Source: a virus (taxonomy: Duplodnaviria; Heunggongvirae; Uroviricota; Caudoviricetes). Taken from it: DNA of 55,177 nucleotides. Where the stretch lies: IMG/VR virus record IMGVR_UViG_2541047719_000008. One strand, written 5' to 3'. Shown here piece after piece: positions 2,728 to 52,368 of this stretch; positions within the stretch are counted from its first letter, which is position 1; each line of letters opens with the position of its first letter. The notes under the pieces are model-generated. The model was not told the DNA's origin. It searched no databases and saw only the letters and a list, made by a program, of their open reading frames with translations. The position numbers were made by a program, and so were the translations under genes.

Positions 2728-2827
2728 CGCGCTGAGTTTGGGTAAAAGGAAGCCCTCACCATCCGGTGATTATTGAGTTAATTACGTTTCCATAAATGCC
2801 CCCGCAGGGGCATTTGCAGTAATGAAA

Positions 2828-3652: not shown

Positions 3653-3717
3653 AATAAGTCCTCACTATATAAAGATATTCAGTGATGAGATAAATAATCA
3701 GTTAATTAAGAACGATA

Positions 3718-25729: not shown

Positions 25730-25975
25730 ATGGGATTGTTTACGACCCGCCAGTTACTCGGTTATACCGAACAAAAAGTTAAATTTCGTGCGCTGTTTCT
25801 GGAGCTGTTTTTCCGCCGTACGGTGAATTTCCATACCGAAGAGGTGATGCTGGACAAAATTACCGGAAAAACGCCGGTGGCGGCCTATGTCTCCCCGGTT
25901 GTTGAAGGAAAAGTGCTGCGTCATCGTGGTGGTGAAACCCGCGTGTTGCGTCCGGGCTACGTCAAGCCGAAGCAC
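25730..25975 (+). pseudogene. E: Major capsid protein E, N-terminal fragment (interrupted by the inserted element)
   Basis: First ~82 codons match lambda gpE up to RPGYVKPKH, then the frame runs into unrelated sequence and stops at 26005. Confidence 0.85.
25965..25975. other. Left junction core repeat (attL-like) AGCCGAAGCAC
   Basis: 11-bp sequence at the point where E homology ends; an imperfect copy AGCCGAAACAC lies where E homology resumes (36698-36708). Confidence 0.55.
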
Positions 25976-26137
25976 TTAGCATGGCTTTCTGAGGCTTTCG
26001 TGTAGTTGCTGGTTTTTACACTTAATCTTTTGATAATAAAGAGTAAGTTTATCTGGCGCTTTCACTGGATTTTCCTCGTTATCTGTGTGTTGCAATCATC
26101 TCTGTATTGCAGCTTGTATTGCTTTTTGGGGCTAAAA

Positions 26138-27373
26138 ATGGCTGGCGAGAACAAACTGAGCGACAAAGCACTTAAAGGATATCTGGGGAAACCTAGAGAA
26201 AAGCAGATCACCATTGCTGATGGAAAGGGGCTTTCTATTCGTGTGAGTACCAAGGGGGCTGTGAGCTTTGTTTTCTTCTACAGGTTAGCAGGTGGCCGGG
26301 CTGCTCCGGTCTGGCTAACGTTGGGTAAATATCCTGATATGTCACTCAAACAGGCAAGGGAAAAGCGCGACGAGTGCCGTGGTTGGTTGGCTGACAAACG
26401 TGATCCGCGTATTCAGATTAAGATTCAGGCTGAAGAACGCTTAAAGCCGGTCACAGTGGAGGATGCACTAAATTACTGGTATGAAAATTACTGTAAGGTG
26501 CGTCGTAAAACTCATGCTGTAACGCTTGGCAGATTTCGAAAGCATATCTTTCCCTATATCGGTCATTTGCCCGTAAATGACACTCACCTATATGAATGGC
26601 TGGACTGTTTTGACCGAATTAAACGTAATGCACCAGTTATGGCGGCGTATGTTTTTTCTGACACTAAATTAGCTCTTCGTTTTTGTCGGGTACGCCAGTA
26701 CGCGACGTGTGATGCTTTAAAGGATTTGCGCATGAGTGATGTGGGGCAGATTGCAGGTAAGCGGGATCGGGTTCTGGATGAAGCCGAACTGGGCCAGCTC
26801 TGGAAGGCAATTTTTGTCGAGCCTGATTTAAAACTAATGTCTGAATACACGCGAAAAATGTTTGTGCTTTGTACAGTATTTGGATGTCGAATGAGTGAAG
26901 CCCGATTATCAGAATGGAGCGAATGGGATCTAGAAAGTTGGGTTTGGACTGTACCGAAAGATCACTCAAAAACTGGTGTTGAAATTGTCAGGCCAGTACC
27001 TGAAATTCTACGGCAGTGGGTAACGGATGTTCACGAAGAGACAAAACATACTGGTTATGTGCTGGGAAGTCTGCGAATTAGAGAAAGCGTAAGCAAGATT
27101 GGGGGGAAAATCGGTAAACGTTTGGGCCATGAAAAACAATGGTCACTACACGACCTTAGAAGAACGCTATCTACTCATCTAAGTGATCTCGGTGTTGAAT
27201 TTTATGTAGTAGAACAACTGTTAGGCCATGCGCTACCTGGCGTGGCAGGTGTTTACAACCGGAGTAAGTTTATGGCTAAAAAACTGGATGCTCTGGAACT
27301 CTGGACTACATATCTCAATAGCATCGCAGCTGCTGATTCAAAAGTGACAATCCTCAAACAAAAGGCTGGTTAG
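26138..27373 (+). CDS. int: Tyrosine integrase, P4-type
   Basis: N-terminal LSDKALKGYLGKP...GKGLSIRVS (P4-integrase N-domain) and C-terminal catalytic HDLRRT ... GH...Y motifs; start taken at MAGENK rather than the upstream ORF start at 26006. Confidence 0.85.
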   Translation: MAGENKLSDKALKGYLGKPREKQITIADGKGLSIRVSTKGAVSFVFFYRLAGGRAAPVWLTLGKYPDMSLKQAREKRDECRGWLADKRDPRIQIKIQAEERLKPVTVEDALNYWYENYCKVRRKTHAVTLGRFRKHIFPYIGHLPVNDTHLYEWLDCFDRIKRNAPVMAAYVFSDTKLALRFCRVRQYATCDALKDLRMSDVGQIAGKRDRVLDEAELGQLWKAIFVEPDLKLMSEYTRKMFVLCTVFGCRMSEARLSEWSEWDLESWVWTVPKDHSKTGVEIVRPVPEILRQWVTDVHEETKHTGYVLGSLRIRESVSKIGGKIGKRLGHEKQWSLHDLRRTLSTHLSDLGVEFYVVEQLLGHALPGVAGVYNRSKFMAKKLDALELWTTYLNSIAAADSKVTILKQKAG

Positions 27374-27374
27374 C

Positions 27375-27596
27375 ATGAAAAAAATGGCAATTGTTGATAA
27401 AAAGGGGCTGGAGTACATTCCTAACATTGACCGAATGATCCGTGAGAAAGAATGTCGGGAGCTAACCACTCTTGCGAACAGCACACGCTGGAAGCTTGAA
27501 AAGGAGGGGAAATTCCCCAAGCGAATCAAAATCGGATCTACGGCGGTGGCTTATAGACTCTCTGAGATTCAAGCTTGGATAAGAGGTGAATGGTAA
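27375..27596 (+). CDS. alpA: AlpA-family transcriptional regulator/excisionase
   Basis: 73 aa; REKECRELTTLANSTRWKLEKEGKFPKRIKIG...AYRLSEIQAWI matches the AlpA pattern; directly follows int. Confidence 0.75.
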   Translation: MKKMAIVDKKGLEYIPNIDRMIREKECRELTTLANSTRWKLEKEGKFPKRIKIGSTAVAYRLSEIQAWIRGEW

Positions 27597-27622
27597 GTTA
27601 GGGAGGTATTCCTCCCTATATC

Positions 27623-28306
27623 TTACAGGAAATTTTTTAAATCAGGGTTTTTTCCAAATGCGCTCTTATAATATACTGTTGCAATCTCGTTAAAAATAGT
27701 TTTTATATCATCGGTAACCACTATTGTTGCTACGCGCAAATCTTTTTGATATTCATTTAAATCTGGAGGGGTATAGTCCAATAGCGTTGATTTATCCAAG
27801 ATTAAATGTTCTAACATGGCATAGCGCTCAATCAATGTTTTATAAAAATGATATTGATTTTCACTGTTAGCATGTGCACAGTTTATTGCAAGTAAATACG
27901 TTATTTCATTATCTAGATGTGCACGGACAAGGCTTGTATAGGTTTTTTTACGATCTAGATCAAAGGGATGGTATCCAGCATTTTCATCAATGAACTTCAA
28001 TAGATGATATAATATTCTGAAGTAGCTTCCAAAAACAGCATCATGATTGTGCATCAGTGTATTAGTGTCTTTTAAAGAAACCAATCCATTCATCATTTTA
28101 TTAATTAACTCTGAGTAATTTGATTTTTTTCTAAGATCATTTAGAGCATTGTTATGTTGAGATAACATGAGAGAAAATGTTGATTCAAAAGATGATTGCT
28201 TTTTAGCAATTAATGCAACTAACACTGCTGTGCAAGTCCCGAGTGCCACGAAGAAATTTATAATGTTTGATGCAGTGAATACAGCATCGTCAGGAGTTGG
28301 AGTCAT
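27623..28306 (-). CDS. AT-rich cargo gene: hypothetical membrane-anchored protein, candidate abortive-infection/defence factor
   Basis: 227 aa on the opposite strand to int-alpA; one N-terminal hydrophobic helix; markedly AT-rich compared with its neighbours; no confident family assignment. Confidence 0.5.
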   Translation of the reverse strand: MTPTPDDAVFTASNIINFFVALGTCTAVLVALIAKKQSSFESTFSLMLSQHNNALNDLRKKSNYSELINKMMNGLVSLKDTNTLMHNHDAVFGSYFRILYHLLKFIDENAGYHPFDLDRKKTYTSLVRAHLDNEITYLLAINCAHANSENQYHFYKTLIERYAMLEHLILDKSTLLDYTPPDLNEYQKDLRVATIVVTDDIKTIFNEIATVYYKSAFGKNPDLKNFL

Positions 28307-28338
28307 TTGAATATCCTATTCAATAAAAATTAAAAAAA

Positions 28339-28533
28339 TTAGCCTTTAGGTTCTATACCTTTACGGCGAAGCTCAGCACGAACTAATTCTTTAATCCAAT
28401 TGGCCAAGCTCATTCCTTCCTGAGCTGCTGATTCAGCCATCTGTTCTTTGAGTTCAGGATTGATTCGGATCTGAAACGCAGGGGCTTTGCCGGCTCCTTT
28501 TGGCTGCTTATCTCTTTGAATTGTAGTTGACAT
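28339..28533 (-). CDS. Ribbon-helix-helix (CopG/Arc-type) DNA-binding protein
   Basis: 64 aa; APAFQIRINPELKEQMAESAAQEGMSLANWIKELVRAEL is a classic RHH beta-strand plus two helices. Confidence 0.65.
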   Translation of the reverse strand: MSTTIQRDKQPKGAGKAPAFQIRINPELKEQMAESAAQEGMSLANWIKELVRAELRRKGIEPKG

Positions 28534-28578
28534 GTGTGTACCTATTGCTTAGCATCAGTGTTGAATAGGTACACACAT
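28532..28578. promoter_or_regulatory. Perfect 15-bp inverted repeat (candidate operator) at the RHH gene start
   Basis: ATGTGTGTACCTATT ... 17 bp ... AATAGGTACACACAT, overlapping the RHH start codon, in the divergent intergenic region. Confidence 0.5.
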
Positions 28579-28669
28579 TAACATGATGTTATACCTATAA
28601 ACAACGCCCTAGGGTGCTCGCAACACACCTAGGGCGTCTAACCACAAACCGTTAACTGGAGTAACGACT

Positions 28670-29035
28670 ATGGCTGGAACACAGCATACCCAAACTCACC
28701 CTAAATTTATATACATCTTTCTGGCGCTACATCGCGATCGCATAGCAGATGGAGCAACTACGGTACATGTAGCCGCTGACACGCTGGTTGATGCGCGCAA
28801 GATGGTTAAGGAGATGGGCTATACTGCGGCTTTCTGGAAAGGGCGGGAAGAAAACACGCTGTTTATTCAGAAATGTGAAAACAATTTCATCTGGCGTTTT
28901 ATCGCCCTGAGTACGGCACAACCGCGCGTGATTACCATCGAGGCCACCAGCGAACAGGAAGCCCGCCAGCAATCCCCAACTGGCTGCGTGATGATATTCG
29001 CCGCCCGTATTCGTCAGGAGGTGTGCCATGAATGA
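28670..29035 (+). CDS. Hypothetical protein (first gene of the rightward operon of the element)
   Basis: 121-aa ORF; no motif recognised; true start may be internal. Confidence 0.4.
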   Translation: MAGTQHTQTHPKFIYIFLALHRDRIADGATTVHVAADTLVDARKMVKEMGYTAAFWKGREENTLFIQKCENNFIWRFIALSTAQPRVITIEATSEQEARQQSPTGCVMIFAARIRQEVCHE

Positions 29036-29252
29036 TCTTTATTTTAAAGTGCTGACACATGCTGAAAACGCGCTCGTTTGTGGCAAAAATATGCGAGAAA
29101 TCTTATCAACCTGGCTTGATGGGACAACAAATGCGGAACACGATGAACGGGATGCTAATTTAGCTGGAGCGTTAATTACGTTACTTGATCCTGTCATCAA
29201 AGAGCTGGATGAAGCTATAAAAATACACGACCAGAGCTATACCGGAGAATAA
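29028..29252 (+). CDS. Hypothetical protein
   Basis: 74-aa ORF overlapping the upstream stop. Confidence 0.4.
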   Translation: MNDLYFKVLTHAENALVCGKNMREILSTWLDGTTNAEHDERDANLAGALITLLDPVIKELDEAIKIHDQSYTGE

Positions 29253-29255
29253 AAA

Positions 29256-29543
29256 ATGAAAAATAAATTTTCTGGCTTTATTGCCAGCGGTCAAACTCAT
29301 TCAAAAATCAGCCTTGGGGATATTTTCAAAGATAGCTATGGCTATCGGGTAAAGATTATTTCGGTTGATGATCGTCGTGTCTCTTATTTGCGTGATGGTT
29401 ATGATTTTGAATGTGTTATGCCGCGTCAGCAGTTCGAAAGAGATTTCATTCTGGTAAAAAATTGCAAGACAGATAATCAGAGGCGTGCCGCAGGCTATAT
29501 CCGTAAAATTCGGGCAATGTTAGTTGCCGGAGGTAACAAATGA
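29256..29543 (+). CDS. Hypothetical protein
   Basis: 95-aa ORF immediately preceding and overlapping the primase start. Confidence 0.4.
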   Translation: MKNKFSGFIASGQTHSKISLGDIFKDSYGYRVKIISVDDRRVSYLRDGYDFECVMPRQQFERDFILVKNCKTDNQRRAAGYIRKIRAMLVAGGNK

Positions 29544-31360
29544 AACGTGCTCCGAACTTAAAATACCAACCGCGCGACAAAATGACGGAAGTCATCATTT
29601 TTGCTGGCAGTGATGCCTGGAGCCATGCAAAAGAATGGAATGAATGGGCAGGTAAGCATATTGCAGCAGATGATACACCACCAGTCATTCTGGGTACGGA
29701 ACAACTGGAAAACCTGGATGATATGCAAATTATCGATGAAGGCCGTCATTATGTGCGTGTTTATCGTGCCGGAAAGATTGCAGAGAAAAGTCTGACGAAG
29801 GTTGCGACATTACTTGCTATTGCAGGCGTAAAGGAAGCACGTTGTTACCGTAGCTTTGTTGATCGAGAGCCTGAAGACTGGACTCCGCGCCTTGTCGGCC
29901 TAAAAGCTGAAGCGGAGCATGGGGAAAGTCTGGTGATTGAACTGCCAGTGAAGAAGGCAGAGCGCAAAAATGACGAGCGTGCTTCATCTTTGGCGTTGAA
30001 TCAGATGGGGGCCAGCCAGCGCGGTGAAGTTCTCCTTGCACATTACGGCGGCGAACTGGCAATCAATGCCGACTCTGACACCGTTCATCATTACAACGGC
30101 GTTGTATGGGAGCCGGTTCAGGATAAAGAGTTACAGCGTGCTATGGCGCAGATTTTCATTGATGCGGAGATCAGCTATTCGCAGAACGCCATTAAATCGG
30201 CGGTAGATACCATGAAGTTAAGTTTGCCTGTAATGGGGAATACAGCCCGTAACCTGATTGGATTCAGTAACGGGGTATTTGATACCAGAACTGGTAATTT
30301 TCGGGAGCATAACAAAAACGACTGGTTGTTAATTGCCAGTGAATTACCTTTCAGCCCACCAGCAGAGGGGGAAACGCTGGCAACACATGCGCCGAATTTC
30401 TGGAAGTGGTTGCGCCGTTCGGTGGCTGAGAATGACCGCAAGGCAGATCGCGTACTGGCGGCATTATTCATGGTGCTGGCGAACCGGTACGACTGGCAGT
30501 TATTCATTGAGGTAACAGGGCCGGGGGGAAGTGGTAAAAGTGTGATGGCGGAGATTTGCACCATGCTGGCGGGTAAGGCGAATACAGTATCAGCAAGCAT
30601 GAAGGCGCTGGAAGATGCAAGGGAACGTGCGTTAGTGGTTGGCTTTTCGCTGATTATCATGCCGGATATGACCCGCTACGCTGGTGATGGGGCAGGGATT
30701 AAGGCCATTACAGGCGGTGACAAGGTGGCAATTGACCCGAAACACAAAGCCCCCTATTCAACGCGTATTCCGGCAGTAGTGCTGGCGGTTAACAATAACG
30801 CCATGTCATTCAGTGACCGCAGCGGGGGGATCTCACGTCGTCGGGTGATATTCAATTTTTCGGAAGTTGTACCGGAGAACGAACGCGATTCGATGCTGGC
30901 GGAAAAAATAGAAGGTGAGCTGGCGGTAGTGATTCGCCATCTGCTTACACGGTTTGCTGATCAGGACGAAGCCAGACGCCTGTTATATGAGCAGCAGAAA
31001 TCTGAAGAAGCACTGGCGATAAAGCGAGAGGGGGATTCGCTGGTGGACTTCTGCGGCTATCTCATGGCATCGGTAATGTGTGATGGCCTGTTAGTGGGTA
31101 ATGCTGAAATTGTGCCATTCAGCCCACGCAGGTATCTCTATCATGCCTATCTGGCTTATATGAGGGCACATGGGTTTGGTAAACCTGTAACACTGACGCG
31201 CTTCGGTAAAGATATGCCGGGGGCAATGGCGGAATATGGCAGGGAGTATATGAAACGGAAAACGAAGCACGGTTTGCGTTCAAACGTGACACTGACGGAG
31301 GAATCAGAAGACTGGATGCCATCATGTGTATCGGTCACTAATGACGATAGCAAAAATTAA
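29540..31360 (+). CDS. Primase/helicase replication initiator (P4-alpha / PICI Pri-Rep type)
   Basis: 606 aa with Walker A GPGGSGKS in the C-terminal half (D5/P4-primase-type NTPase); followed directly by an iteron array. Confidence 0.8.
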   Translation: MKRAPNLKYQPRDKMTEVIIFAGSDAWSHAKEWNEWAGKHIAADDTPPVILGTEQLENLDDMQIIDEGRHYVRVYRAGKIAEKSLTKVATLLAIAGVKEARCYRSFVDREPEDWTPRLVGLKAEAEHGESLVIELPVKKAERKNDERASSLALNQMGASQRGEVLLAHYGGELAINADSDTVHHYNGVVWEPVQDKELQRAMAQIFIDAEISYSQNAIKSAVDTMKLSLPVMGNTARNLIGFSNGVFDTRTGNFREHNKNDWLLIASELPFSPPAEGETLATHAPNFWKWLRRSVAENDRKADRVLAALFMVLANRYDWQLFIEVTGPGGSGKSVMAEICTMLAGKANTVSASMKALEDARERALVVGFSLIIMPDMTRYAGDGAGIKAITGGDKVAIDPKHKAPYSTRIPAVVLAVNNNAMSFSDRSGGISRRRVIFNFSEVVPENERDSMLAEKIEGELAVVIRHLLTRFADQDEARRLLYEQQKSEEALAIKREGDSLVDFCGYLMASVMCDGLLVGNAEIVPFSPRRYLYHAYLAYMRAHGFGKPVTLTRFGKDMPGAMAEYGREYMKRKTKHGLRSNVTLTEESEDWMPSCVSVTNDDSKN

Positions 31361-31373
31361 ACTTATGGAATAA

Positions 31374-31596
31374 CTGTTCACCACTGTTCACCCTGTCATA
31401 AATATCTTTTATATCAGTATATTATAGGGTGAACAGTTATTTATGAACTGTTCACCAAACTATTCACTGTTCACCTTTTTGATTGTTTATTGAGCTTCAA
31501 GGGTGAACAGTGGTGAACAGTTGGTGAATAGTTTTTGTGAAACTGTTCACCCATTAACATTATGAATTAAAAGAGAAAATATCAAAAGGTGAACAG
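31374..31596. repeat. Iteron array, candidate replication origin of the element
   Basis: At least nine copies of the 9-mer CTGTTCACC/GGTGAACAG in both orientations (e.g. 31374, 31384, 31428, 31448, 31467, 31502, 31512, 31543, 31588) in AT-rich non-coding DNA. Confidence 0.7.
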
Positions 31597-31647
31597 GTGA
31601 AGGGTTAAAACGCAAAAATTTTAATTTACTGCTGTGAGATAAAGCCT

Positions 31648-31893
31648 ATGACAGCGAAGCACACAAAAAAATCACAATCGCACGCCCTTGATTTGACGGA
31701 ACACTGGTTAAGGGTGTCGATAAAAATCATCGACCGCAACGCCGGGGAAGGATACGCGAAAGCACATCCCGAACTGATTAGCGCATTCATGACAACGGCG
31801 GCTGCAAACTTTGCCACTCTGACCGAACGGGAGATTGCTGAAGCGGAGGAAGTGGCAACAATCAATATTAAGTCCGGAGAGCAGGCAGCATGA
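31648..31893 (+). CDS. Hypothetical protein
   Basis: 81-aa ORF between the origin and ssb. Confidence 0.4.
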   Translation: MTAKHTKKSQSHALDLTEHWLRVSIKIIDRNAGEGYAKAHPELISAFMTTAAANFATLTEREIAEAEEVATINIKSGEQAA

Positions 31894-32339
31894 CGGCGCA
31901 AATATCAGTTTACGGGCGGTTGGTGGACGACCCGCAGACAAAACAGACCAGCAAGGGCACCCCCATGACGCTGGCGCGTATGGCGGTATCACTGCCCTGC
32001 AGTCAGTCGGATGACGGTCAGGCGACGATGTGGTTATCTGTCCTGGCGTTTGGCAGACAAGCCGACGCGCTGGCAAAGCATCACAAAGGCGAACTCCTGA
32101 GCGTGGCGGGTAATATGCAGGTGAGCCAGTGGACTGGACAGAACGGTGAAACGCGGCAGGGCTGGCAGGTTATCGCAGACAGCGTAATCAGTGCGCGAAC
32201 GGTGCGACCGGGCGGCAAAAAAGGTCAACAGGGTCAGGCTACTGACGCACTGAACAGAGCAAAACAACAGGCAGATCAGCAAGGAAGCCATCCACCAGTG
32301 GGAGATAATGAACAATGGGGAGATGATATTCCGTTTTAA
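31890..32339 (+). CDS. ssb: Single-stranded DNA-binding protein
   Basis: OB-fold-like N-terminus, Gly/Gln-rich linker and the canonical acidic tip DDIPF at the C-terminus. Confidence 0.75.
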   Translation: MTAQISVYGRLVDDPQTKQTSKGTPMTLARMAVSLPCSQSDDGQATMWLSVLAFGRQADALAKHHKGELLSVAGNMQVSQWTGQNGETRQGWQVIADSVISARTVRPGGKKGQQGQATDALNRAKQQADQQGSHPPVGDNEQWGDDIPF

Positions 32340-32550
32340 ATATTGCCAATAAAAAAGGCCGGAAAAAAATAAATTTTCCGGCATGCTACATAAATCCCGA
32401 CCAAAGGGAGTGAAGATATTAACACTAATTATCCGCGCTGAAGTTGTTATCCCAAAACTTTATACAACATTGCACTCGGTTGCATGTATTCGCATGACAA
32501 ATATCGGTGATAGCATATATCCACAATTATTTTTAATGAATGCAAAGAGG

Positions 32551-33597
32551 ATGCGTATGGTTGATTTATATTCGCCTACCCAGCTTGTACAGGTGGTTAA
32601 TGCTGTAGATGTACAAAAACAACTAAATGCGTTGTTTACCAGTTTGTTTTTTACTCGCTCGGTAATGTTTGAATCGCGCGATATTATTCTTGATACAATC
32701 GACGATCCAAATATCCCAATTGCAGCGTTTTGTTCTCCTATGGTGGGTAGTAAAGTTTCACGTGACGAAGGGTACGAATCAAAAACAATTCGTCCAGGCT
32801 ATATGAAGCCGAAAAGCAGCATTGATCCAAATAAGTTAGCTGTGCGCCCTGTTGGTGTATCACCTGAGCAATACAATGCTTTTGGAGCGCGTAATATTAA
32901 AGTTAAACAGGCGATTGTAAATCAGGCTAAAGCTATTCGTGCACGTATTGAATGGCTTGCCGTTCAGGCAATCACAACGGGGAAAAATATCATTGAGGGC
33001 GATGGTATTGAACGTTATGAGCTGGACTGGAATATTAAACCACAAAATATCATCACTCAGTCTGGCGGTGCTGAGTGGTCAGGTAAGGATAAAGAAACTT
33101 TTGATCCAAATGATGATATTGAGAGCTACGCAGAATTTAGTGAGGGCGTCACTAATATTATCATTATGGGCGGTAATGTATGGAAGAAATACCGTTCATT
33201 CAGAGCGATAAAAGAGGCTCTGGATACCCGTCGTGGTTCTAATTCCGAACTGGAAACGGCCCTTAAAGACCTTGGTGATTCGGTGAGTTTTAAAGGGTAT
33301 ATGGGCGATGTTGCGATTGTTGTTTACAGCGGGCGTTATACCGACGAGGACGGAACAGAAAAACATTTCCTTGATCCTGATTTGATGGTGCTTGGCAATA
33401 CGGCTCTTCAGGGGATTGTCGCCTATGGCGGTATTCAGGATCCGGAGCTAATCCGAATGGGGCTGACTAAAGCCGAACTTGCACCGAAAAACTATATTGT
33501 GCCTGGTGATCCGGCTATTGAATATGTGCAGACACATTCAGCACCACAGCCAATACCGGCCCGCATCAATCGTTTTGTTACCGTTCGCATTGGCTAA
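32551..33597 (+). CDS. Major capsid protein, lambda E-like paralog encoded by the inserted element
   Basis: Full-length homology to the split prophage E gene (RPGYMKPKS vs RPGYVKPKH; LDTRRGSNSELETALKDLG; YSGRYTDEDG; GDPAIEY). Start at MRMVDLY with AAAGAGG RBS; the tool ORF starts at 32383. Confidence 0.8.
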   Translation: MRMVDLYSPTQLVQVVNAVDVQKQLNALFTSLFFTRSVMFESRDIILDTIDDPNIPIAAFCSPMVGSKVSRDEGYESKTIRPGYMKPKSSIDPNKLAVRPVGVSPEQYNAFGARNIKVKQAIVNQAKAIRARIEWLAVQAITTGKNIIEGDGIERYELDWNIKPQNIITQSGGAEWSGKDKETFDPNDDIESYAEFSEGVTNIIIMGGNVWKKYRSFRAIKEALDTRRGSNSELETALKDLGDSVSFKGYMGDVAIVVYSGRYTDEDGTEKHFLDPDLMVLGNTALQGIVAYGGIQDPELIRMGLTKAELAPKNYIVPGDPAIEYVQTHSAPQPIPARINRFVTVRIG

Positions 33598-33606
33598 GGG
33601 GGAGCA

Positions 33607-33948
33607 ATGGCTACTCATTACACTGAACTCATGGCTGGCACTGAAGCACTGGTGACTACGCTGGGGATATTTTCAGCTAATAAAGGGGTAATTCCTGCAT
33701 TTACGCCACTGATGCAGGAAGATGCAACAGGTGCACTGGTAGTATGGGATGGTTCGAGCGTAGGTAAAGCGGTTTATGTTTCCGCTGTACAAATCGACAC
33801 CGCGAAAAAAACACAGGCTCAGGTCTATAAGACAGGTGTCTTAAATGTTGATGCTCTGAACTGGCCTGAGTCTGTTAAAGAACTGTCAGTAAAGGTTGCA
33901 GCGTTTGTTGGCTCAGGTATTTCTGTTCAGCCGCTGGCTCGTGTGTAA
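33607..33948 (+). CDS. Head decoration protein, lambda D-like paralog encoded by the inserted element
   Basis: 113 aa sharing TPLM, VVWDG, YK(T/S)G, NWPESV and AF(V/A)GS blocks with the prophage D protein. Confidence 0.75.
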   Translation: MATHYTELMAGTEALVTTLGIFSANKGVIPAFTPLMQEDATGALVVWDGSSVGKAVYVSAVQIDTAKKTQAQVYKTGVLNVDALNWPESVKELSVKVAAFVGSGISVQPLARV

Positions 33949-33959
33949 AGGGGGATACA

Positions 33960-34343
33960 ATGCAGAATGATTACAATGACCTTAAGCCAATTGCCGAAAT
34001 GATGTACCCGAATCAAGCTGTAGAGGAATTAAAAGCTATCGCTGACAAAATGTGTTTAAGCGAGCGCCTTGTTGATATGAATCAGGTGATGGAAATTACA
34101 ACCCTGAGTCGTCGTACACTGCTAAACCTTGAGGCTAGTGGAGAGTTCCCGGAGCGTGTGCAGGTTACGGAAGGGCGTAAGGCCTGGTATTTAAGTGAAG
34201 TGATCGACTGGATAAATAATATTCCTCGCGCTTCTGAATATTGCCGCGTACCTGTCCCAAAAAAGCCAGATGCGGCGCTATGCCTCAAGATTGAGCGTGT
34301 ACGCCGCAATGCACGGGATGGTCGCTATAAGCTGATTGGTTGA
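33960..34343 (+). CDS. AlpA-like HTH DNA-binding protein
   Basis: MEITTLSRRTLLNLEASGEFPERVQVTEGRKAWYLSEVIDWI matches the AlpA-type HTH; precedes the element's cos site. Confidence 0.5.
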   Translation: MQNDYNDLKPIAEMMYPNQAVEELKAIADKMCLSERLVDMNQVMEITTLSRRTLLNLEASGEFPERVQVTEGRKAWYLSEVIDWINNIPRASEYCRVPVPKKPDAALCLKIERVRRNARDGRYKLIG

Positions 34344-34369
34344 TGAAATTAGGGCCTGCTCTGGCTGGC

Positions 34370-34434
34370 GGGTCCTTTCCGGCGATCTGACAGGCTACGG
34401 GGCGTCAGGCGCGCGGGTTTTCGCTATTTATGAG
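34370..34434. other. Second, element-borne cos site with variant cosN (GGGCGTCAGGCG)
   Basis: GGGTCCTTTCCGGCGATCTGACAGGCTACG + GGGCGTCAGGCG + CGCGGGTTTTCGCTATTTATGAG aligns to the prophage cos at 19350-19416, with five substitutions in the 12-nt cohesive-end segment. Confidence 0.7.
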
Positions 34435-34535
34435 CATTTTAAGGGGACTGGTGGTGGTTTTGTTGTTCGCTATATCTGTATGAATAATAAGAGAAAAATA
34501 CAATCAATACACCAACCTGAAACAGTAATTAAGTT

Positions 34536-35087
34536 GTGGTATCAATGAAATTACACCTGATGAACAAAAAAAACATGGCAAAAAGTTGCCGTGTAAGCGC
34601 CACTGCGTTCGATAAGTGGGGAGTGATTCCCGTCGAGCGTAAGGGCCGTGAGGCGTTCTATGATGTTGCCAGTGTAATAGATAATCGGGTTAACAATGCA
34701 ATCAGCCAGATTACAAACGAAACGGGCGATATTGATGACGATGAACTTTTACGCGTCAGGATCAGATTACTGACAGCACAGGCAGAGGCGCAGGAGCTTA
34801 AAAACGAGCGCGAACGCGGCGACGTTATTGATACAGAGTTTTGTATGTATGTTCTTTCCAAACTGGCGAGTCAGATTTCATCTATCATGGACAGCCTGCC
34901 GCTTACCATGCAAAGGCGCTTCCCACAGATGACTCCGGCTATGCTGGATGGACTTAAAAAGGAAGTGGCTAAAGCCTGTAATGCCAGTGCCGGCGTTGCT
35001 GACAACCTCCCACAGATACTGGCTGATTATCTGATGGAAAGTACAGGAAACGTACCGGATAAGTTGCAGCTGAATAAGGATAAGTAA
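34536..35087 (+). CDS. Terminase small subunit, Nu1-like paralog encoded by the inserted element
   Basis: SATAFDKWGVIPVERKGREAFYDV ... YVLSKLASQISSIMDSLPLTMQRRFPQMTP parallels the prophage Nu1 (SVQAFDKWGVPPVERRGREVFYDV ... ALSKLAMALSSTLDSIPLSMQRQFPDLTP). Confidence 0.8.
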   Translation: MVSMKLHLMNKKNMAKSCRVSATAFDKWGVIPVERKGREAFYDVASVIDNRVNNAISQITNETGDIDDDELLRVRIRLLTAQAEAQELKNERERGDVIDTEFCMYVLSKLASQISSIMDSLPLTMQRRFPQMTPAMLDGLKKEVAKACNASAGVADNLPQILADYLMESTGNVPDKLQLNKDK

Positions 35088-35098
35088 CGTAGTACGCT

Positions 35099-35374
35099 AT
35101 GACTGAATCCGAACTACTGAAAGTAATCTGCCATGCTGGTGGAGTCAGCCACCAGCATGACGAACAGGCCACGCAGCCGGGCAGTGTCACCGCTGAAAAT
35201 TACGCTCGTGTGGTTGCTGAGGTTATGTGGCGTGACGGTATAGAACTGAACGGACAGGATTGCTTAGTCATCCGCACCAAAGTGCTGGCTATACTGGCAG
35301 CTAGGCGGAGGCAGGGACAACGCCAGAACGTTGCATCGTACCAGTGGAAGAAGCCTGACAGACTGCGGCGATAA
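35099..35374 (+). CDS. Hypothetical protein
   Basis: 91-aa ORF after the Nu1-like gene; no motif recognised. Confidence 0.35.
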   Translation: MTESELLKVICHAGGVSHQHDEQATQPGSVTAENYARVVAEVMWRDGIELNGQDCLVIRTKVLAILAARRRQGQRQNVASYQWKKPDRLRR

Positions 35375-35776
35375 CTCTTTGATTTTCTCGACGGCCCCAA
35401 AATGGGCCTTACCATAGCCAGCTAATAAATGAGCAAGCCTCAAAAGTGAGGTTTGTGGCCGTTTGGCCTATTCATATGCTAACTCGTTGATATTCCTGAC
35501 GACGCAAATTTACGCCTTGTGGCTGGTAGTCGAATTGCAAATTTGCAACTCGACTATGAAACTACAGGTAGTTTGGGTAGTAAAAGCAACACACTGATTT
35601 TGGGGCTTCTTCGCGATACCTAATATTATGGTATCGGTGGAAGAGATATCGTTTCTCATAGGTTAGCACCGAGGGCGGAGTTCCGCCCTCATCGAAAAAT
35701 TGCTTACGAGTCGTCAAAATAAATTAATCGACTGAGTATAATGATTAACTAATTGCTCGTGTTACTTCATTATACG

Positions 35777-36538
35777 TTATTTCCCATCTTTAAGGTTTAA
35801 CCAAGTGTTAATTAAAAAAAGAGCCATTGAGCCTGATAAATTTACTGCAAGTTCGGCATGCCTTGGGGATGGCTTAATTGATGAGCTGTTCGTTCCATGT
35901 GCATCACCGAGTTTATTACGAAGAGTACCTAACCCATTTACAACTGCAGAACAACCGCCGAGAATTTGTTTGAAGATATTTTCAGTATGTTGGTCGGCAG
36001 ATAGGTTAAGTTCTTTTGAAAGAGTTTTATAAAGCTCTGACATTTCAATATTTTTATTATTATACTGAATGCCCATATCATCAAGAATGTGTTTGCAAAC
36101 TGTTTCAAGAAGTGTTCTTGCGGAGGTTATCGCACCATCCGGATCTGTATGGCGCCGTTCAAGTGCTTTTATCCAAACGGCGTGGACTCCATCCTCGTTA
36201 AACTTTCTTAATACATCAGATATGTCTTCATCCGCTGGAGCTTTATTTTTCCCTTCTAGATAGTCCAGCATCGGCTGAAATGCCTTATAAATCAAATCTC
36301 TCCGGGGGGCATACTTTTCAGTCTTTTTTATAAATCCCCAAAATTCTTTTAGTGAGCGATTAGTTCTCACAAACTCTGGTAATAGCTGATGTAAAGGAGG
36401 ATTTTGTAAGAAATATGTTCTTAGAAGCAAATAATCATTATTAGCTTCATCCTGGGCTCCTGTAGCTCTTGCAATTAGTATGTTTTGAAGCGCTACTGCG
36501 CGCTCTAGGTCATTTTGAAGGGTATCTATAATATTCAT
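35777..36538 (-). CDS. AT-rich cargo gene: Abi_C-like (abortive infection C-terminal domain) protein
   Basis: 253 aa; C-terminal GTLRNKLGDAHG resembles the conserved R-N-x-x-G-x-A-H-G signature of Abi_C domains; opposite strand and AT-rich. Confidence 0.5.
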   Translation of the reverse strand: MNIIDTLQNDLERAVALQNILIARATGAQDEANNDYLLLRTYFLQNPPLHQLLPEFVRTNRSLKEFWGFIKKTEKYAPRRDLIYKAFQPMLDYLEGKNKAPADEDISDVLRKFNEDGVHAVWIKALERRHTDPDGAITSARTLLETVCKHILDDMGIQYNNKNIEMSELYKTLSKELNLSADQHTENIFKQILGGCSAVVNGLGTLRNKLGDAHGTNSSSIKPSPRHAELAVNLSGSMALFLINTWLNLKDGK

Positions 36539-36697
36539 AACAAATCTTTATTCACTTCATTTGTGGGTTGATAATTGAATGGTTTGTACATTGATTTCTG
36601 TGTATTGCAGTGTGTATTGCAACATAGCCATTCAGGTAGAGATTATGCTCTATTTTTCCTCTTATATCATTCACATACTTACACCATTGACTCATGT

Positions 36698-36708
36698 AGC
36701 CGAAACAC
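36698..36708. other. Right junction core repeat (attR-like) AGCCGAAACAC
   Basis: Imperfect copy of the left junction 11-mer, at the exact point where the E reading frame resumes. Confidence 0.55.
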
Positions 36709-37491
36709 GAATTTAATTACCAGCAGGCGGTTGAGCGCCTTCCTGGTGAAGATCCATCTCAACTGAACGATCCGGCTTACCGCCGTCTGCGTATCATTAC
36801 CGATAACCTCAAACAGGAAGAGCACGCGATTGTCCAGGTGGAAGAAATGCAGGCGGTAAATGCTGTGTTGTATGGCAAATACACCATGGAAGGAGACCAG
36901 TTCGAGAAAATTGAGGTCGATTTTGGCAGGTCGACGAAGAATAACATCACACAGGGTAGCGGTAAGGAATGGTCAAAACAGGATCGTGACACGTTCGATC
37001 CTACACATGATATTGACCTTTACTGCGACCAGGCCAGCGGTCTTGTGAATATTGCCATCATGGACGGTACCGTCTGGCGTCTGCTGAATGGTTTTAAGCT
37101 GTTTCGCGAAAAACTGGATACCCGTCGCGGTTCAAATTCACAACTCGAAACGGCAGTGAAAGATCTGGGCGCAGTGGTGTCCTTCAAGGGGTATTACGGC
37201 GATCTGGCTATTGTTGTGGCGAAAACGTCTTATATAGCAGAAGACGGTATCGAAAAACGTTATCTTCCAGATGGCATGCTGGTCCTGGGGAATACTGCTG
37301 CAGATGGGATCCGTTGTTACGGAGCCATTCAGGATGCGCAGGCGTTTTCCGAAGGTGTGGTGGCTTCTTCCCGTTATCCGAAACACTGGCTGACGGTGGG
37401 GGATCCTGCCCGTGAATTTACCATGACGCAGTCCGCACCGCTGATGGTGTTGCCGGACCCGGATGAGTTTGTGGTGGTACAGGTGAAATAA
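36700..37491 (+). pseudogene. E: Major capsid protein E, C-terminal fragment
   Basis: Frame opens after a TAG at 36697-36699 and reads PKHEFNYQQAVERLPGEDP ... DPAREFTMTQSAPLMVLPDPDEFVVVQVK, matching lambda gpE from about residue 80 to the end. Confidence 0.85.
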
Positions 37492-49885: not shown

Positions 49886-52078
49886 GTGGATATGGCAGCA
49901 GTAAAAATCTCAGGTGTGCTGAAAGATGGTGCGGGAAAACCAATACAGAACTGCACTATTCAACTGAAGGCAAAGCGTAACAGCACCACGGTACTGGTGA
50001 ACACGGTGGCCTCTGAAAATCCGGATGAAGCCGGGCGTTACAGCATGGACGTTGAGTATGGCCAGTACAGCGTTATCCTGCTGGTTGAAGGTTTTCCGCC
50101 TTCACATGCCGGAACCATTACCGTCTATGAAGGTTCCAGACCAGGTACGCTGAATGATTTTCTCGGTGCCATGACGGAAGATGATGTCATGCCGGAGGCA
50201 TTGCGTCGTTTTGAGGAAATGGTGGAAGAAGCGGCACGCAACGCTGAAGCCGCCTCTCAGAGCGCAGCGGCGGCAAAGAAATCCGAAACTGCAGCGGCAT
50301 CATCGAAGAACGCGGCGAAAACCTCAGAAACGAATGCAGCTAACAGCGCACAGGCGGCAGCGGCCTCGCAGACTGCATCGGCAAACTCCGCAACAGCAGC
50401 TAAAAAATCAGAAACCAACGCGAAAAATAGCGAGACAGCCGCAAAGACGAGCGAAACCAACGCAAAGTCCAGCCAGACGGCAGCGAAGACCAGCGAAACG
50501 AATGCCAAAGCCAGTGAAACTGCGGCGAAAAGCAGTCAGGATGCAGCGGCCCAAAGCGAGAGTGCCGCAGCCAGTTCTGCAAGCGCGGCGGCTGCTTCTG
50601 CTACTGCATCAGCTAACAGTCAAAAAGCAGCAAAAACCAGTGAAACCAACGCAAAGGTGAGCGAAACAGCGGCTGCGAGCTCAGCGAAAGCATCGGCAGC
50701 AAGCCAGACGGCAGCTAAAGCAAGCGAAGATGCAGCCAGAGAGTACGCAAGCCAGGCTGCGGAGCCGTATAAATATGTCTTACAGCCGCTGCCTGATGTG
50801 TGGATACCATTTAACGATTCGCTGGATATGATTACGGGCTTTTCGCCATCATATAAAAAAATTGTTATTGGTGACGATGAAATAACGATGCCTGGCGACA
50901 AGATTGTTAAGTTTAAACGTGCATCGAAAGCAACCTATATTAACAAATCTGGTGTGCTGACAGAGGCTGCCATTGACGAGCCACGATTTGAACGTGATGG
51001 CCTGCTTATTGAGGGGCAAAGAACAAACTACATGCTCAATTCGGAAAGCCCTGCCAGTTGGGGGCGATCGTCAAATATGGATGTGCCCGAAACAGGGACG
51101 GATAATTTTGGTTTTACCTATGGAAAGTTTGTCTGCAACGATTCTCTGATTGGGCAAACCTCAGCCATTAATATGGCATCAATTGCTGCAACAAAGTCAG
51201 TTGATGTCTCAGGCGATAATAAACACGTGACAACCTCATGTCGTTTTAAAACAGAACTGCAGGTAAGGTTGCGTATCCGGTTTGATAAATATGACGGTAG
51301 CGCAACAACTTTTCTTGGTGATGCGTATATTGATACACAAACGCTTGAAATTAATATGACAGGCGGTGCTGCCTCAAGAATTACAGCGAGAGTCAGAAAG
51401 GACGAAGCTACCGGATGGATTTTTGCAGAGGCAACAATTCAGGCAATTGATGGGGAGTTAAAAATAGGCTCTCAGATACAGTATTCTCCTAAGCAGAGCG
51501 GGGCAACCGTATCTGGTGACTATATTTATCTGGCCACCCCACAAGTAGAAGATGGGCCTTGTGTATCATCTTTTATTATATCAGGAGCGACGGCGGCGAC
51601 CCGCGCAAGCGATATAGTTACAGTTCCAATTAAGAATAATCTTTATAATCTTCCTTTTACGGTTCTTTGTGAGGTACATAAGAACTGGTATAAAACGCCA
51701 AATGCAGCGCCACGTGTTTTTGATACCGGCGGTCATCAAACCGGAGCGGCTATTATTCTTGGCTTCGGTCGTTCAACAGATTACGACGGATTTCCTTATT
51801 GCGATATTGGAGGAGCTAACAGACGGGTAAACGAAAACGCATTGCTTGAAAAAATGGTTATGGGGATGCGTGTAAAGTCAGATCAGTCTACGTGCTCAGT
51901 AAGTAACGGGCGTATATCCAGCCAAACAAAAACCACATGGTCCTATATTCAGAACACCGCAATTATCCGTATTGGAGGCCAAACTACAGCCGGGTTACGT
52001 CATTTATTTGGTCATGTCAGGAATTTCAGAATATGGCACAAGGCATTGACTGATGCTCAGGTGGGGGAGTCAATCTAA
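49886..52078 (+). CDS. stf: Side tail fibre protein with divergent C-terminal receptor-binding region
   Basis: N-terminus MAAVKISGVLKDGAGKPIQNCTIQLKAKRNSTT... matches lambda Stf; central Ala/Ser/Thr-rich repeats; C-terminus is more AT-rich and ends ...RNFRIWHKALTDAQV, reminiscent of LamG-like lectin domains. Confidence 0.8.
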   Translation: MDMAAVKISGVLKDGAGKPIQNCTIQLKAKRNSTTVLVNTVASENPDEAGRYSMDVEYGQYSVILLVEGFPPSHAGTITVYEGSRPGTLNDFLGAMTEDDVMPEALRRFEEMVEEAARNAEAASQSAAAAKKSETAAASSKNAAKTSETNAANSAQAAAASQTASANSATAAKKSETNAKNSETAAKTSETNAKSSQTAAKTSETNAKASETAAKSSQDAAAQSESAAASSASAAAASATASANSQKAAKTSETNAKVSETAAASSAKASAASQTAAKASEDAAREYASQAAEPYKYVLQPLPDVWIPFNDSLDMITGFSPSYKKIVIGDDEITMPGDKIVKFKRASKATYINKSGVLTEAAIDEPRFERDGLLIEGQRTNYMLNSESPASWGRSSNMDVPETGTDNFGFTYGKFVCNDSLIGQTSAINMASIAATKSVDVSGDNKHVTTSCRFKTELQVRLRIRFDKYDGSATTFLGDAYIDTQTLEINMTGGAASRITARVRKDEATGWIFAEATIQAIDGELKIGSQIQYSPKQSGATVSGDYIYLATPQVEDGPCVSSFIISGATAATRASDIVTVPIKNNLYNLPFTVLCEVHKNWYKTPNAAPRVFDTGGHQTGAAIILGFGRSTDYDGFPYCDIGGANRRVNENALLEKMVMGMRVKSDQSTCSVSNGRISSQTKTTWSYIQNTAIIRIGGQTTAGLRHLFGHVRNFRIWHKALTDAQVGESI
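50250..50750. repeat. Low-complexity repeat region within stf (AAKTSETNAK-type repeats)
   Basis: Repeated KTSETNAK / KSSQTAAK / KASETAAK units in the protein; the ORFs called on other frames and on the opposite strand here are artefacts. Confidence 0.5.
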
Positions 52079-52359: not shown

Positions 52360-52368
52360 GGAAGAAAA

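What the first reader, a model, noticed from the sequence alone, without database searches (positions are those of the whole stretch)
27623..28306. AT-rich, opposite-strand cargo gene next to int-alpA: candidate anti-phage/abortive-infection factor
This 227-aa ORF is visibly more AT-rich than its neighbours, is on the opposite strand to the surrounding operons, and has one N-terminal hydrophobic helix. Its position between the integrase module and the regulatory switch matches where satellites are known to carry variable defence cargo. I cannot assign it to a family by eye, so it may be an uncharacterised effector.
Basis: inference. Interest (0 to 1): 0.6.

Follow-up and report, generated by a model that had tools for sequence, protein, structure and literature searches.

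The report
Abortive-infection cargo gene in embedded satellite
The AT-rich reverse-strand gene encodes a membrane-anchored protein of the known "putative abortive infection" family (Pfam putAbiC, related to lactococcal AbiC/AbiP), and it sits in a swap-in/swap-out defence slot of a phage satellite that lives inside its helper prophage's capsid gene; this is a sound but fairly ordinary example of defence cargo.

Summary
Window 27623-28306 (-) is a 227-aa ORF with GC 0.32, which puts it in the lowest 0.7% of equal-sized windows. It is antisense to the surrounding operon and has one N-terminal transmembrane helix.

It matches Pfam PF16872 putAbiC at 60 bits against a cutoff of 22, and RefSeq already calls the identical protein "putative phage abortive infection protein". 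It is only remotely related to the lactococcal prototypes AbiC and AbiP (PADLOC about 18.5 bits, partial). No solved fold resembles it.

The host element is a published kind: a helper-embedded PICI ("11capE" type) integrated in a lambdoid prophage's major capsid gene.

In 69 sibling elements with 91-100% identical integrases, the stretch between the alpA stop and the small RHH gene holds about 17 unrelated AT-rich cargos. These include validated PD-T7-1, a TIR protein and an HNH effector. Only 11 of 5426 complete E. coli genomes carry this gene.

So the defence-cargo interpretation is supported by family membership and by location. No phenotype has been tested.

The most likely mechanism is a constitutively expressed, membrane-anchored AbiP-like sentinel that aborts infection by competing phages. 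This is inferred.

Novelty: new member of a known kind. Interest is modest.

The parts
27623..28306 (-). Cargo gene. It encodes a 227-aa single-pass membrane protein with a putAbiC (PF16872) domain at aa 88-171 and a TM helix at about aa 14-34.
28339..28533 (-). 64-aa ribbon-helix-helix gene (HicB/CopG-like; RefSeq 'YlcI/YnfO family'). It lies 32 nt upstream on the same strand as the cargo gene. It is a backbone gene of the satellite and is probably the repressor whose transcript also carries the cargo gene.
28532..28578 (.). Perfect 15-nt inverted repeat (ATGTGTGTACCTATT / AATAGGTACACACAT) with a 17-nt spacer. It overlaps the RHH start codon and the rightward promoter-like site at 28527-28555. 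Candidate operator of the divergent switch.
27599..27618 (.). 8-bp-stem hairpin (TAGGGAGG/CCTCCCTA) in the 26-nt gap between the convergent alpA and cargo genes. Possible bidirectional terminator; there is no canonical T-run.
27375..27596 (+). alpA (Phage_AlpA). Left conserved flank of the variable slot. Homology to sibling elements ends at 27593-27606.
26138..27373 (+). Tyrosine integrase of the satellite.
28670..29035 (+). icd-like gene, the first gene of the rightward (replication) operon. Right conserved flank of the slot. Homology to siblings resumes at 28310-28340 or at 28597-28633.
25965..25975 (.). attL core AGCCGAAGCAC, inside the helper prophage's major capsid gene (codons ...KPKH).
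36698..36708 (.). attR core AGCCGAAACAC. The capsid reading frame (KPKHEFNYQQ...) and the homology to uninterrupted prophage capsid genes both resume here.
35777..36538 (-). Second reverse-strand, AT-rich (GC 0.38) cargo gene at the other end of the island. It has an Abi_C domain and is AbiJ-like, with the HEPN-type motif RNKLGDAH.

Best explanation
The gene is exchangeable anti-phage cargo of a helper-embedded phage satellite (HE-PICI).

Shown:
- It encodes a single-pass inner-membrane protein with a short acidic N-terminus and a KK pair straight after the helix.
- The roughly 190-residue all-helical domain carries the putAbiC signature (YFRxLYHLLKFI ... R128 ... EH167 ... AFG).
- It fills a sharply bounded cassette between the alpA stop codon and the satellite's small RHH gene, and sibling satellites hold unrelated genes at that spot, some of them known defence genes.

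Inferred (topology): the charge distribution around the helix predicts N-out/C-in, so the helical domain is cytoplasmic.

Inferred (expression):
- The gene is co-transcribed with the RHH repressor gene. The gap is 32 nt, no terminator-like site lies between the two genes, and they share a strand.
- It would therefore be made continuously while the satellite and prophage are quiescent.
- Because it lies antisense to helper late transcription, expression may fall when the helper is induced.

Inferred (mechanism, by homology to the AbiC/AbiP group and to PdpSau):
- The protein sits inert in the membrane.
- A product of an infecting, competing phage triggers the cytoplasmic domain. Candidates are a structural protein (as for AbiP) or a nucleic acid.
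- The phage programme is then arrested, possibly with membrane depolarisation. The infected cell yields no progeny, and the composite element's host population is protected.
For: Family: PF16872 scores 60.2 bits against a cutoff of 22 and covers profile positions 2-78 of 80. PADLOC AbiC and AbiP give weak hits. A profile of the subfamily reaches 2676 representative clusters, of which 630 have E<=1e-10. Of 95 relatives, 42 hit the AbiP model and 9 the AbiC model. RefSeq names the identical protein WP_001560451.1 'putative phage abortive infection protein'.

Architecture: one TM helix with the charge distribution expected for N-out/C-in. The AF2 model has pLDDT 86.9 and is all-alpha. The topology matches AbiP, which has one TM; AbiC has two (review PMC13064643).

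Hotspot: 21 slot types, about 17 distinct cargo sets, occur in 69 elements. Eight different sets occur among elements whose integrase is at least 99% identical. All cargos have GC 0.29-0.37. Cassette boundaries are at 27593-27606 and 28310-28340. Sibling cargos include PD-T7-1 at 510 bits, validated in PMC9519451, TIR/PDC-S35 at 224 bits, and an HNH effector-like protein at 93 bits.

Rarity: 11 of 5426 complete E. coli genomes carry it, all at 99.9-100% identity.

Recurrence: homologues at 83%, 58% and 55% identity occupy the same alpA|x|RHH position in satellites of Enterobacter, Pectobacterium and Klebsiella.

Family function: AbiP needs its TM anchor, binds RNA and ssDNA, and is triggered by a major tail protein. 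AbiC lowers major capsid protein production. PdpSau is a prophage-encoded AbiP-like membrane protein that gives abortive infection with changes in membrane permeability and potential (PMC10127798).
Against: No phenotype was tested here, and I found no paper testing a PF16872 protein in E. coli.

Similarity to the only characterised members is remote: 18.5 and 18.9 bits, partial coverage, and E no better than 3.5e-9 across 95 relatives. Even AbiC and AbiP appear to differ from each other in mechanism.

The cytoplasmic part is near-neutral (pI 6.5). PdpSau's C-terminal domain is described as positively charged, and AbiP binds nucleic acids.

Co-transcription with the RHH gene is inferred from spacing only. 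The consensus scan found no leftward promoter upstream of the RHH gene.

Location in a hotspot is circumstantial. About half of the sibling cargos have no known function.
Confidence: 0.62

Rival explanations
1. Superinfection exclusion. The membrane-anchored protein, made constitutively from the repressor transcript, blocks DNA entry or an early envelope step of incoming phages, as P22 SieA or T4 Imm do. It would not abort infection after entry.
For: It is a single-pass membrane protein. It sits just downstream of a repressor-like gene, which is the classic place for prophage exclusion genes (general knowledge). No enzymatic fold is recognisable.
Against: Its only recognisable family is one whose characterised members act after DNA entry: AbiP blocks replication and the transcription switch, AbiC lowers capsid protein production, and PdpSau does not affect adsorption. 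Only about 13 residues are predicted to lie outside the membrane, which leaves little for an envelope-side activity.
Confidence: 0.12
2. Helper-directed interference. The protein acts on the helper lambdoid phage rather than on foreign phages, for example by lowering helper major-capsid production as AbiC does. This would favour the satellite, which carries its own capsid and decoration genes.
For: The satellite interrupts the helper capsid gene and encodes its own Phage_cap_E and gpD homologues. AbiC partially inhibits major capsid protein production.
Against: A function core to the satellite life cycle should be conserved. Only about 10% of sibling elements carry the gene, and the others hold generic defence genes in the same slot (PD-T7-1, TIR, HNH). 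The gene is antisense to the late transcription that would accompany helper induction. A homologue also occurs in a Morganella chromosomal islet with no satellite.
Confidence: 0.07
3. Toxin-antitoxin or addiction pair. The RHH (HicB/CopG-like) protein would be the antitoxin of a membrane toxin, stabilising the island.
For: The small RHH gene matches Pfam HicB at 27 bits. It lies directly upstream on the same strand with a 32-nt gap. The pairing recurs in Klebsiella, Enterobacter and Pectobacterium.
Against: The same RHH protein, at 80-89% identity, sits next to unrelated cargos: PD-T7-1, a 241-aa protein and a 207+180-aa pair. Between E. coli and Klebsiella the RHH is 89% identical while the putAbiC protein is only 55% identical. 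In L053 and L073 a putAbiC homologue occurs without this RHH. In Morganella the gene has no RHH neighbour. The RHH therefore belongs to the satellite backbone.
Confidence: 0.06
4. A non-defence moron or decaying passenger. The gene would be a horizontally acquired AT-rich membrane protein with some other role, or none.
For: The evidence for function is circumstantial. Low GC marks foreign origin, not function.
Against: Full-length conservation runs from 50% to 83% identity across genera, with 27 invariant residues and no truncations in the subfamily. The 11 E. coli copies are 99.9-100% identical and intact. Family membership is confident.
Confidence: 0.1

Closest known systems
AbiP of Lactococcus lactis (AbiC/P group)
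   Same: One N-terminal TM anchor followed by a helical cytoplasmic domain of the putAbiC type. It is a single-gene system of about 220 aa. The PADLOC AbiP model is the one most often hit by relatives of this protein (42 of 95).
   Different: The match is only 18.9 bits. The soluble domain here is near-neutral (pI 6.5), whereas AbiP binds RNA and ssDNA. The host is Gram-negative and the carrier is a satellite, not a plasmid or chromosome. Nucleic-acid binding and the trigger are untested.
AbiC (Prf) of Lactococcus lactis pTN20, the namesake of Pfam PF16872
   Same: It shares the core motif region that defines PF16872. It is a membrane-anchored single-gene Abi.
   Different: AbiC has two TM helices and is longer. 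Most relatives found by profile search are of that two-TM, roughly 300-aa type (69 of 95). This protein belongs to a compact one-TM subfamily seen only in Enterobacterales (28 of 30). The PADLOC AbiC hit is partial (profile positions 171-226 of 306, 18.5 bits).
PdpSau of Staphylococcus aureus prophages (PMC10127798)
   Same: It is encoded on a mobile element and expressed in the lysogenic state. It is an N-terminally anchored, AbiP-like protein that protects the lysogen population from unrelated lytic phages.
   Different: No sequence relationship was shown here. PdpSau has a basic C-terminal domain with a proposed OB-like region.
Defence hotspots of P2 phages, P4 satellites and PICIs (PMC9122126, PMC13586616)
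   Same: Conserved flanks, sharply bounded AT-rich cassettes, many alternative defence systems, and rapid swapping between near-identical elements.
   Different: This hotspot lies between alpA and the RHH switch of capsid-gene-embedded HE-PICIs. The paper that described these elements called it the 'Bro/dynamic zone' and did not analyse it for defence content: the find terms returned 0 hits for 'abortive' and 1 for 'defense', which was never displayed.
HE-PICI '11capE' of E. coli NRG857c (PMC10111431)
   Same: [quoted passage not shown]
   Different: This copy carries putAbiC in the variable slot. Most copies carry something else.

Membership tests
Pfam PF16872 (putAbiC, putative phage abortive infection protein) | Match to the family HMM above the curated gathering score, over most of the model | tested here: met
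   60.2 bits against a cutoff of 22, E 2.8e-16, residues 88-171 on profile positions 2-78 of 80.
Pfam PF16872 (putAbiC, putative phage abortive infection protein) | N-terminal transmembrane helix or helices preceding the domain | tested here: met
   One hydrophobic segment at aa 12-36 and an AF2 helix at 12-60. Among relatives, 69 of 95 have two TM segments and 19 of 95 have one.
Lactococcal AbiC/AbiP group sensu stricto | Confident match to the AbiC- or AbiP-specific profiles (PADLOC PDLC02343 / PDLC02351) | tested here: inconclusive
   18.5 and 18.9 bits, E about 3e-4, with partial model coverage. The best E among 95 relatives is 3.5e-9 for AbiP and 3.5e-7 for AbiC. This is remote homology, not membership of either prototype family.
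Lactococcal AbiC/AbiP group sensu stricto | Nucleic-acid-binding cytoplasmic domain (AbiP; the domain is basic in PdpSau) | tested here: inconclusive
   The soluble part at aa 36-227 has pI 6.5, with 21 K+R against 23 D+E, so it is not basic. Binding itself cannot be tested with these tools.
Lactococcal AbiC/AbiP group sensu stricto | Abortive-infection phenotype: protection at low MOI, and death or arrest of infected cells | not testable with these tools
   This needs cloning and phage challenge.
Defence-hotspot cargo of a phage satellite | Conserved flanking genes with unrelated alternative contents in closely related elements | tested here: met
   21 slot types occur in 69 loci, and 8 different cargo sets occur among elements with at least 99% identical integrase. 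Breakpoints are at 27593-27606 and at 28310-28340 or 28597-28633.
Defence-hotspot cargo of a phage satellite | Alternative contents include experimentally validated defence systems | tested here: met
   PD-T7-1 at 510 bits over the full length, validated in PMC9519451. Also TIR/PDC-S35 at 224 bits, Pfam CAP12-PCTIR_TIR at 116 bits, and an HNH effector-like protein at 93 bits.
Helper-embedded PICI (HE-PICI, 11capE type), as host element | [quoted passage not shown] | tested here: met
   The Phage_cap_E fragments cover profile positions 1-78 upstream and 119-329 downstream. The cores AGCCGAA[G/A]CAC lie at 25965-25975 and 36698-36708, and the capsid reading frame is restored across them.
Helper-embedded PICI (HE-PICI, 11capE type), as host element | Int-AlpA module, primase/replication module, and a late zone with captured capsid genes | tested here: met
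Type II toxin-antitoxin pair (RHH/HicB-like antitoxin plus toxin) | The antitoxin is specifically and consistently paired with its toxin | tested here: not met
   The same RHH, at 80-89% identity, flanks unrelated cargos. putAbiC homologues also occur without it.
HEPN RNase | Conserved Rx4-6H motif in an all-alpha domain | tested here: not met

The most novel reading that the evidence does not exclude
The compact one-TM, near-neutral putAbiC subfamily of Enterobacterales may be a mechanistically distinct sentinel rather than a nucleic-acid binder like AbiP. Satellites living inside helper capsid genes would deploy it from their repressor transcript, and it would sense structural proteins of competing phages and collapse the membrane. 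More broadly, the alpA|RHH slot of HE-PICIs would be an unrecognised defence hotspot. About half of its cargos have no known family: a 178-aa three-TM protein in 21 loci, and 241-aa, 207+180-aa, 275+180-aa, 467-aa, 280-aa and 305+165-aa sets. These would then be new single- or two-gene defence systems.
Probability: 0.2. Interest if true: 0.55.

Novelty: new member of a known kind. Interest (0 to 1): 0.3.

Why it matters
If the protein does protect against phages, it would be the first tested Gram-negative representative of a large family that is almost entirely uncharacterised: 2676 representative clusters whose fold matches nothing solved. It would also show that helper-embedded satellites arm the prophage-satellite composite against competitors.

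The more useful by-product is the slot itself. It has sharply defined conserved flanks, which makes it an easy handle for mining new small defence genes from E. coli and its relatives. The gene on its own is already annotated as a putative Abi protein, so it adds little that a specialist would find surprising.

Tried and rejected
- NCBIfam gave no family.
- tblastn against 50,697 GenBank phage records found no match. The gene is therefore not seen in sequenced phages, although it matches PHROG 38218, a family of unknown function, over its full length.
- Rfam found no RNA family anywhere in the island at E<=0.1. The immunity RNAs reported for some PICI 'Bro zones' are therefore not detected here.
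- The HEPN idea (R161x5H167) was rejected because R161 is not conserved.
- The toxin-antitoxin pairing with the RHH gene was rejected.
- The consensus promoter scan found no convincing leftward promoter for the RHH-cargo unit. Co-transcription therefore remains an inference.
- Literature searches for 'putAbiC'/'PF16872' returned 0 papers, and AbiC+PICI returned one review. No experimental work on this subfamily was found.

Full report
OBSERVATION. It runs 27623..28306 on the - strand, starts with ATG and encodes 227 aa. A GGA-containing ribosome-binding-like sequence lies about 8 nt upstream. Its GC is 0.323 and its GC3 is 0.263. The flanking genes are richer: int 0.453, alpA 0.446, the small RHH gene 0.446 and the icd-like gene 0.514. 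The island as a whole is 0.446 and the window 0.489. Only 0.74% of all 684-nt windows in the 55-kb sequence are as AT-rich. The only hydrophobic segment covers residues 12-36.

WHAT THE ELEMENT IS. The surroundings are a lambdoid prophage. A terminase, a portal, an S49/ClpP-type protease and a gpD-like decoration gene run rightwards up to 25672. A lambda-E-type major capsid gene then breaks off after ...GYVKPKH. Its reading frame resumes at 36698 with KPKHEFNYQQ..., and homology to uninterrupted prophage capsid genes in about 1600 E. coli genomes resumes at the same base. Between the imperfect 11-bp cores AGCCGAA[G/A]CAC (25965-25975 and 36698-36708) lies a 10.7-kb island. It encodes, in order:
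- a tyrosine integrase and AlpA;
- the target gene (- strand) and a 64-aa RHH protein (- strand);
- an icd-like protein, a DUF4222 protein, a D5-type primase/helicase and an SSB;
- its own Phage_cap_E capsid protein and gpD-like decoration protein;
- a second AlpA-like protein and a Nu1-like small terminase;
- a reverse-strand Abi_C-domain gene.

[quoted passage not shown] That paper calls the region after int-alpA a 'dynamic/Bro zone'. It does not appear to discuss defence cargo: the find terms gave no hit for 'abortive' and one for 'defense', which was not displayed.

WHAT THE GENE IS. The protein is a confident member of Pfam PF16872, 'putative phage abortive infection protein' (putAbiC). 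It scores 60.2 bits against a gathering score of 22, with residues 88-171 covering profile positions 2-78 of 80. PADLOC's AbiC and AbiP models give only weak, partial hits of 18.5 and 18.9 bits. PHROG 38218, a family of unknown function, matches over the full length, and NCBIfam has nothing. RefSeq already annotates the identical protein, WP_001560451.1 in E. coli SCU-101, as 'putative phage abortive infection protein'.

Thirty-three close homologues were found. The named ones are all Enterobacterales, most are 222-240 aa, and they share 27 invariant residues, including Y95-F-R-x-L-Y-H101, K104, R128, N142-C143, E166-H167 and A216-F-G218. A profile of this subfamily finds 2676 representative clusters at E<=1e-3 and 630 at E<=1e-10. 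Most of those relatives are about 300 aa with two TM segments, like AbiC. The one-TM form seen here is the minority architecture (19 of 95). Among 95 relatives, 42 touch the AbiP model and 9 the AbiC model, none better than E = 3.5e-9. The protein therefore belongs to the putAbiC superfamily but is not a close relative of either lactococcal prototype.

STRUCTURE. AlphaFold2 run on the 30-sequence alignment gives a confident model (pLDDT 86.9, pTM 0.76). It shows a long N-terminal helix over residues 12-60, which comprises the TM segment plus a stalk, followed by a compact all-helical domain. The N-flank is acidic (PDD) and KK follows the TM helix, so the positive-inside rule predicts a short periplasmic N-terminus and a cytoplasmic domain (inference).

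THE SLOT IS A DEFENCE HOTSPOT. A scan of IMG/VR with the integrase returned 68 loci. I added three RefSeq loci and the window and located the anchor genes in each. I then clustered the DNA between alpA and the icd-like gene.
- There are 21 slot types, corresponding to about 17 distinct cargo sets.
- Among elements whose integrase is at least 99% identical there are eight different cargo sets.
- Every cargo is AT-rich, with GC 0.29-0.37.

Pairwise comparison shows that homology to siblings stops at 27593-27606; the alpA stop codon is at 27594-27596. It resumes at 28310-28340, the RHH stop, or at 28597-28633 where the RHH gene is also replaced. The target gene is therefore a sharply bounded cassette.

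The alternative cargos include:
- PD-T7-1, 510 bits over its full length, experimentally validated in PMC9519451;
- a TIR protein, Pfam CAP12-PCTIR_TIR at 116 bits and PADLOC PDC-S35 at 224 bits;
- an HNH-endonuclease effector-like protein, 93 bits;
- DUF2971 plus a SWIM protein;
- a DUF5677 protein;
- several proteins with no family at all.

The putAbiC cassette is in 7 of the 69 loci, and a 59%-identical allele is in two more. Among 5426 complete E. coli genomes, 11 carry it, all at 99.9-100% identity and in this same context.

Homologues at 83%, 58% and 55% identity occupy the same alpA|x|RHH position in satellites of Enterobacter, Pectobacterium and Klebsiella. Those satellites have different replication and capsid modules, and some are inserted in a prophage ClpP-capsid gene. 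The Pectobacterium element also carries GmrSD elsewhere. One Morganella homologue lies in a chromosomal islet with no satellite.

RELATION TO THE RHH GENE. The 64-aa RHH gene lies 32 nt upstream on the same strand, and no terminator-like site lies in the gap between the two genes. A toxin-antitoxin pairing can be excluded as the main reading. The same RHH protein, at 80-89% identity, sits beside PD-T7-1, a 241-aa protein and a 207+180-aa pair. It is 89% identical between E. coli and Klebsiella, where the putAbiC proteins are only 55% identical. The RHH gene is therefore part of the satellite backbone.

A perfect 15-nt inverted repeat at 28532-28578 overlaps the RHH start codon and brackets the -10 of the only good rightward promoter-like site (28527-28555). 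This fits the RHH protein being the repressor of the rightward replication operon. I infer that the cargo gene rides on the repressor transcript and is expressed in the quiescent state. I also infer that convergent late transcription from the helper would oppose its expression after induction. None of this has been shown.

MECHANISM. The following parts are shown: family membership, the single TM anchor, the all-helical C-terminal domain, and the hotspot position alongside validated defence genes. The remainder is inferred from the family.
- AbiP needs its TM anchor, binds RNA and ssDNA, blocks phage DNA replication and the early-to-late transcription switch, and is triggered by a phage major tail protein.
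- AbiC lowers major capsid protein production without affecting replication.
- PdpSau is a prophage-encoded, AbiP-like membrane protein of S. aureus. It gives population-level protection with changes in membrane permeability and potential.

My best account is a constitutively made, membrane-anchored sentinel whose cytoplasmic domain is activated by a product of a competing phage and aborts that infection. One caution: the soluble domain here is near-neutral (pI 6.5). That sits poorly with simple non-specific nucleic-acid binding.

The rivals, weighed in their own sections, are:
- superinfection exclusion;
- interference directed at the helper, tempting because AbiC affects capsid production and this satellite sits in a capsid gene, but contradicted by the gene's absence from about 90% of sibling elements;
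- a toxin-antitoxin pair;
- a passenger with no function.

COMPARISON AND NOVELTY. The gene is a new, compact Gram-negative member of a known but mechanistically unresolved family, and public annotation already labels it as such. The host element is a published kind. Satellite defence hotspots are well established for P4 and PICIs (PMC9122126, PMC13586616). The addition here is modest: the alpA|RHH slot of capsid-embedded HE-PICIs behaves as such a hotspot, and about half of its cargos are unknown. I found no experimental study of a PF16872 protein in E. coli.

VERDICT. Novelty: new member of a known kind. Interest is about 0.3.

Noticed in passing
window 25965-36708: The whole 10.7-kb int-alpA-primase island is inserted inside the helper prophage's lambda-E-type major capsid gene. 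Its att cores are AGCCGAA[G/A]CAC, and it carries its own capsid, decoration and Nu1-like terS genes. This matches the published HE-PICI '11capE' type (PMC10111431).
   Followed up: yes
window 35777-36538 (-): A second AT-rich (GC 0.38), reverse-strand cargo gene sits at the opposite end of the island. It matches Pfam Abi_C at 83 bits and PADLOC AbiJ at 75 bits. Its motif RNKLGDAH fits the HEPN-type R-polar-X5-H RNase motif shown to be essential in SadR (PMC13590631). It is present in 41 of 5426 E. coli genomes, against 11 for the putAbiC gene, so it is probably a second variable slot.
   Followed up: partly
L002 6373-6909 (-); also L023 and 19 other loci: The commonest cargo in the same slot (21 of 69 loci) is a 178-aa protein with about three hydrophobic segments and GC 0.31. 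It has no Pfam or PADLOC family. Other family-less cargos are a 241-aa protein (L035), a 207+180-aa pair (L057), a 275+180-aa pair (L062), a 467-aa protein (L048), a 280-aa protein (L058) and a 305+165-aa pair (L060). All are candidates for new small defence genes.
   Followed up: partly
window 28527-28578: A perfect 15-nt inverted repeat (ATGTGTGTACCTATT ... AATAGGTACACACAT) overlaps the RHH start codon and a TTGACA-17-TAGCAT rightward promoter-like site. It is a likely operator of the satellite's divergent switch. A second inverted repeat, ACGCCCTAGG/CCTAGGGCGT, lies at 28604-28637.
   Followed up: partly
window 26099-26122 and 36597-36620: A doubled motif (TGTATTGC-AGnn-TGTATTGC) occurs just inside both ends of the island. 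It probably corresponds to the 'doubled DNA motif' of HE-PICI attP regions mentioned in PMC10111431, and may be integrase arm sites.
   Followed up: no
window 31363-31551: Repeated units containing (A)ACTGTTCACC, including palindromic GGTGAACAGTT...AACTGTTCACC, lie in the AT-rich gap downstream of the primase gene. They look like iterons of the satellite's replication origin.
   Followed up: no
window 32557-33597 vs 36838-37491: The satellite's own capsid gene is 70-75% identical in DNA to the C-terminal part of the interrupted helper capsid gene (repeats D1 and D2, spacing 3894). The two differ at the att position (KPKSSIDPNKL against KPKHEFNYQQ), which would prevent self-integration, as the 11capE paper notes.
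   Followed up: partly
L004 and L010 (Klebsiella, Pectobacterium): A different satellite backbone (AAA_25 helicase, ClpP-capsid fusion, DUF1441 terS) is inserted in a prophage ClpP/capsid gene. It has the same alpA|putAbiC|RHH arrangement. L010 also carries GmrSD at 2239-4002, and L004 carries DUF2971 at 186-1202. Defence cargo therefore appears to sit at more than one site in these elements.
   Followed up: partly
window 1-720 (+): This is the most AT-rich stretch of the whole window (GC 0.297). It holds a 239-aa ORF with no Pfam family at the left edge, near the prophage early region; the S24-type repressor is at 4749-5423. It may be another moron.
   Followed up: no
window 53973-54563 (-): A serine recombinase/invertase (Resolvase plus HTH_7) lies next to the tail-fibre and tail-fibre-chaperone genes (49886-53409). 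This suggests an invertible host-range segment in the helper prophage.
   Followed up: no
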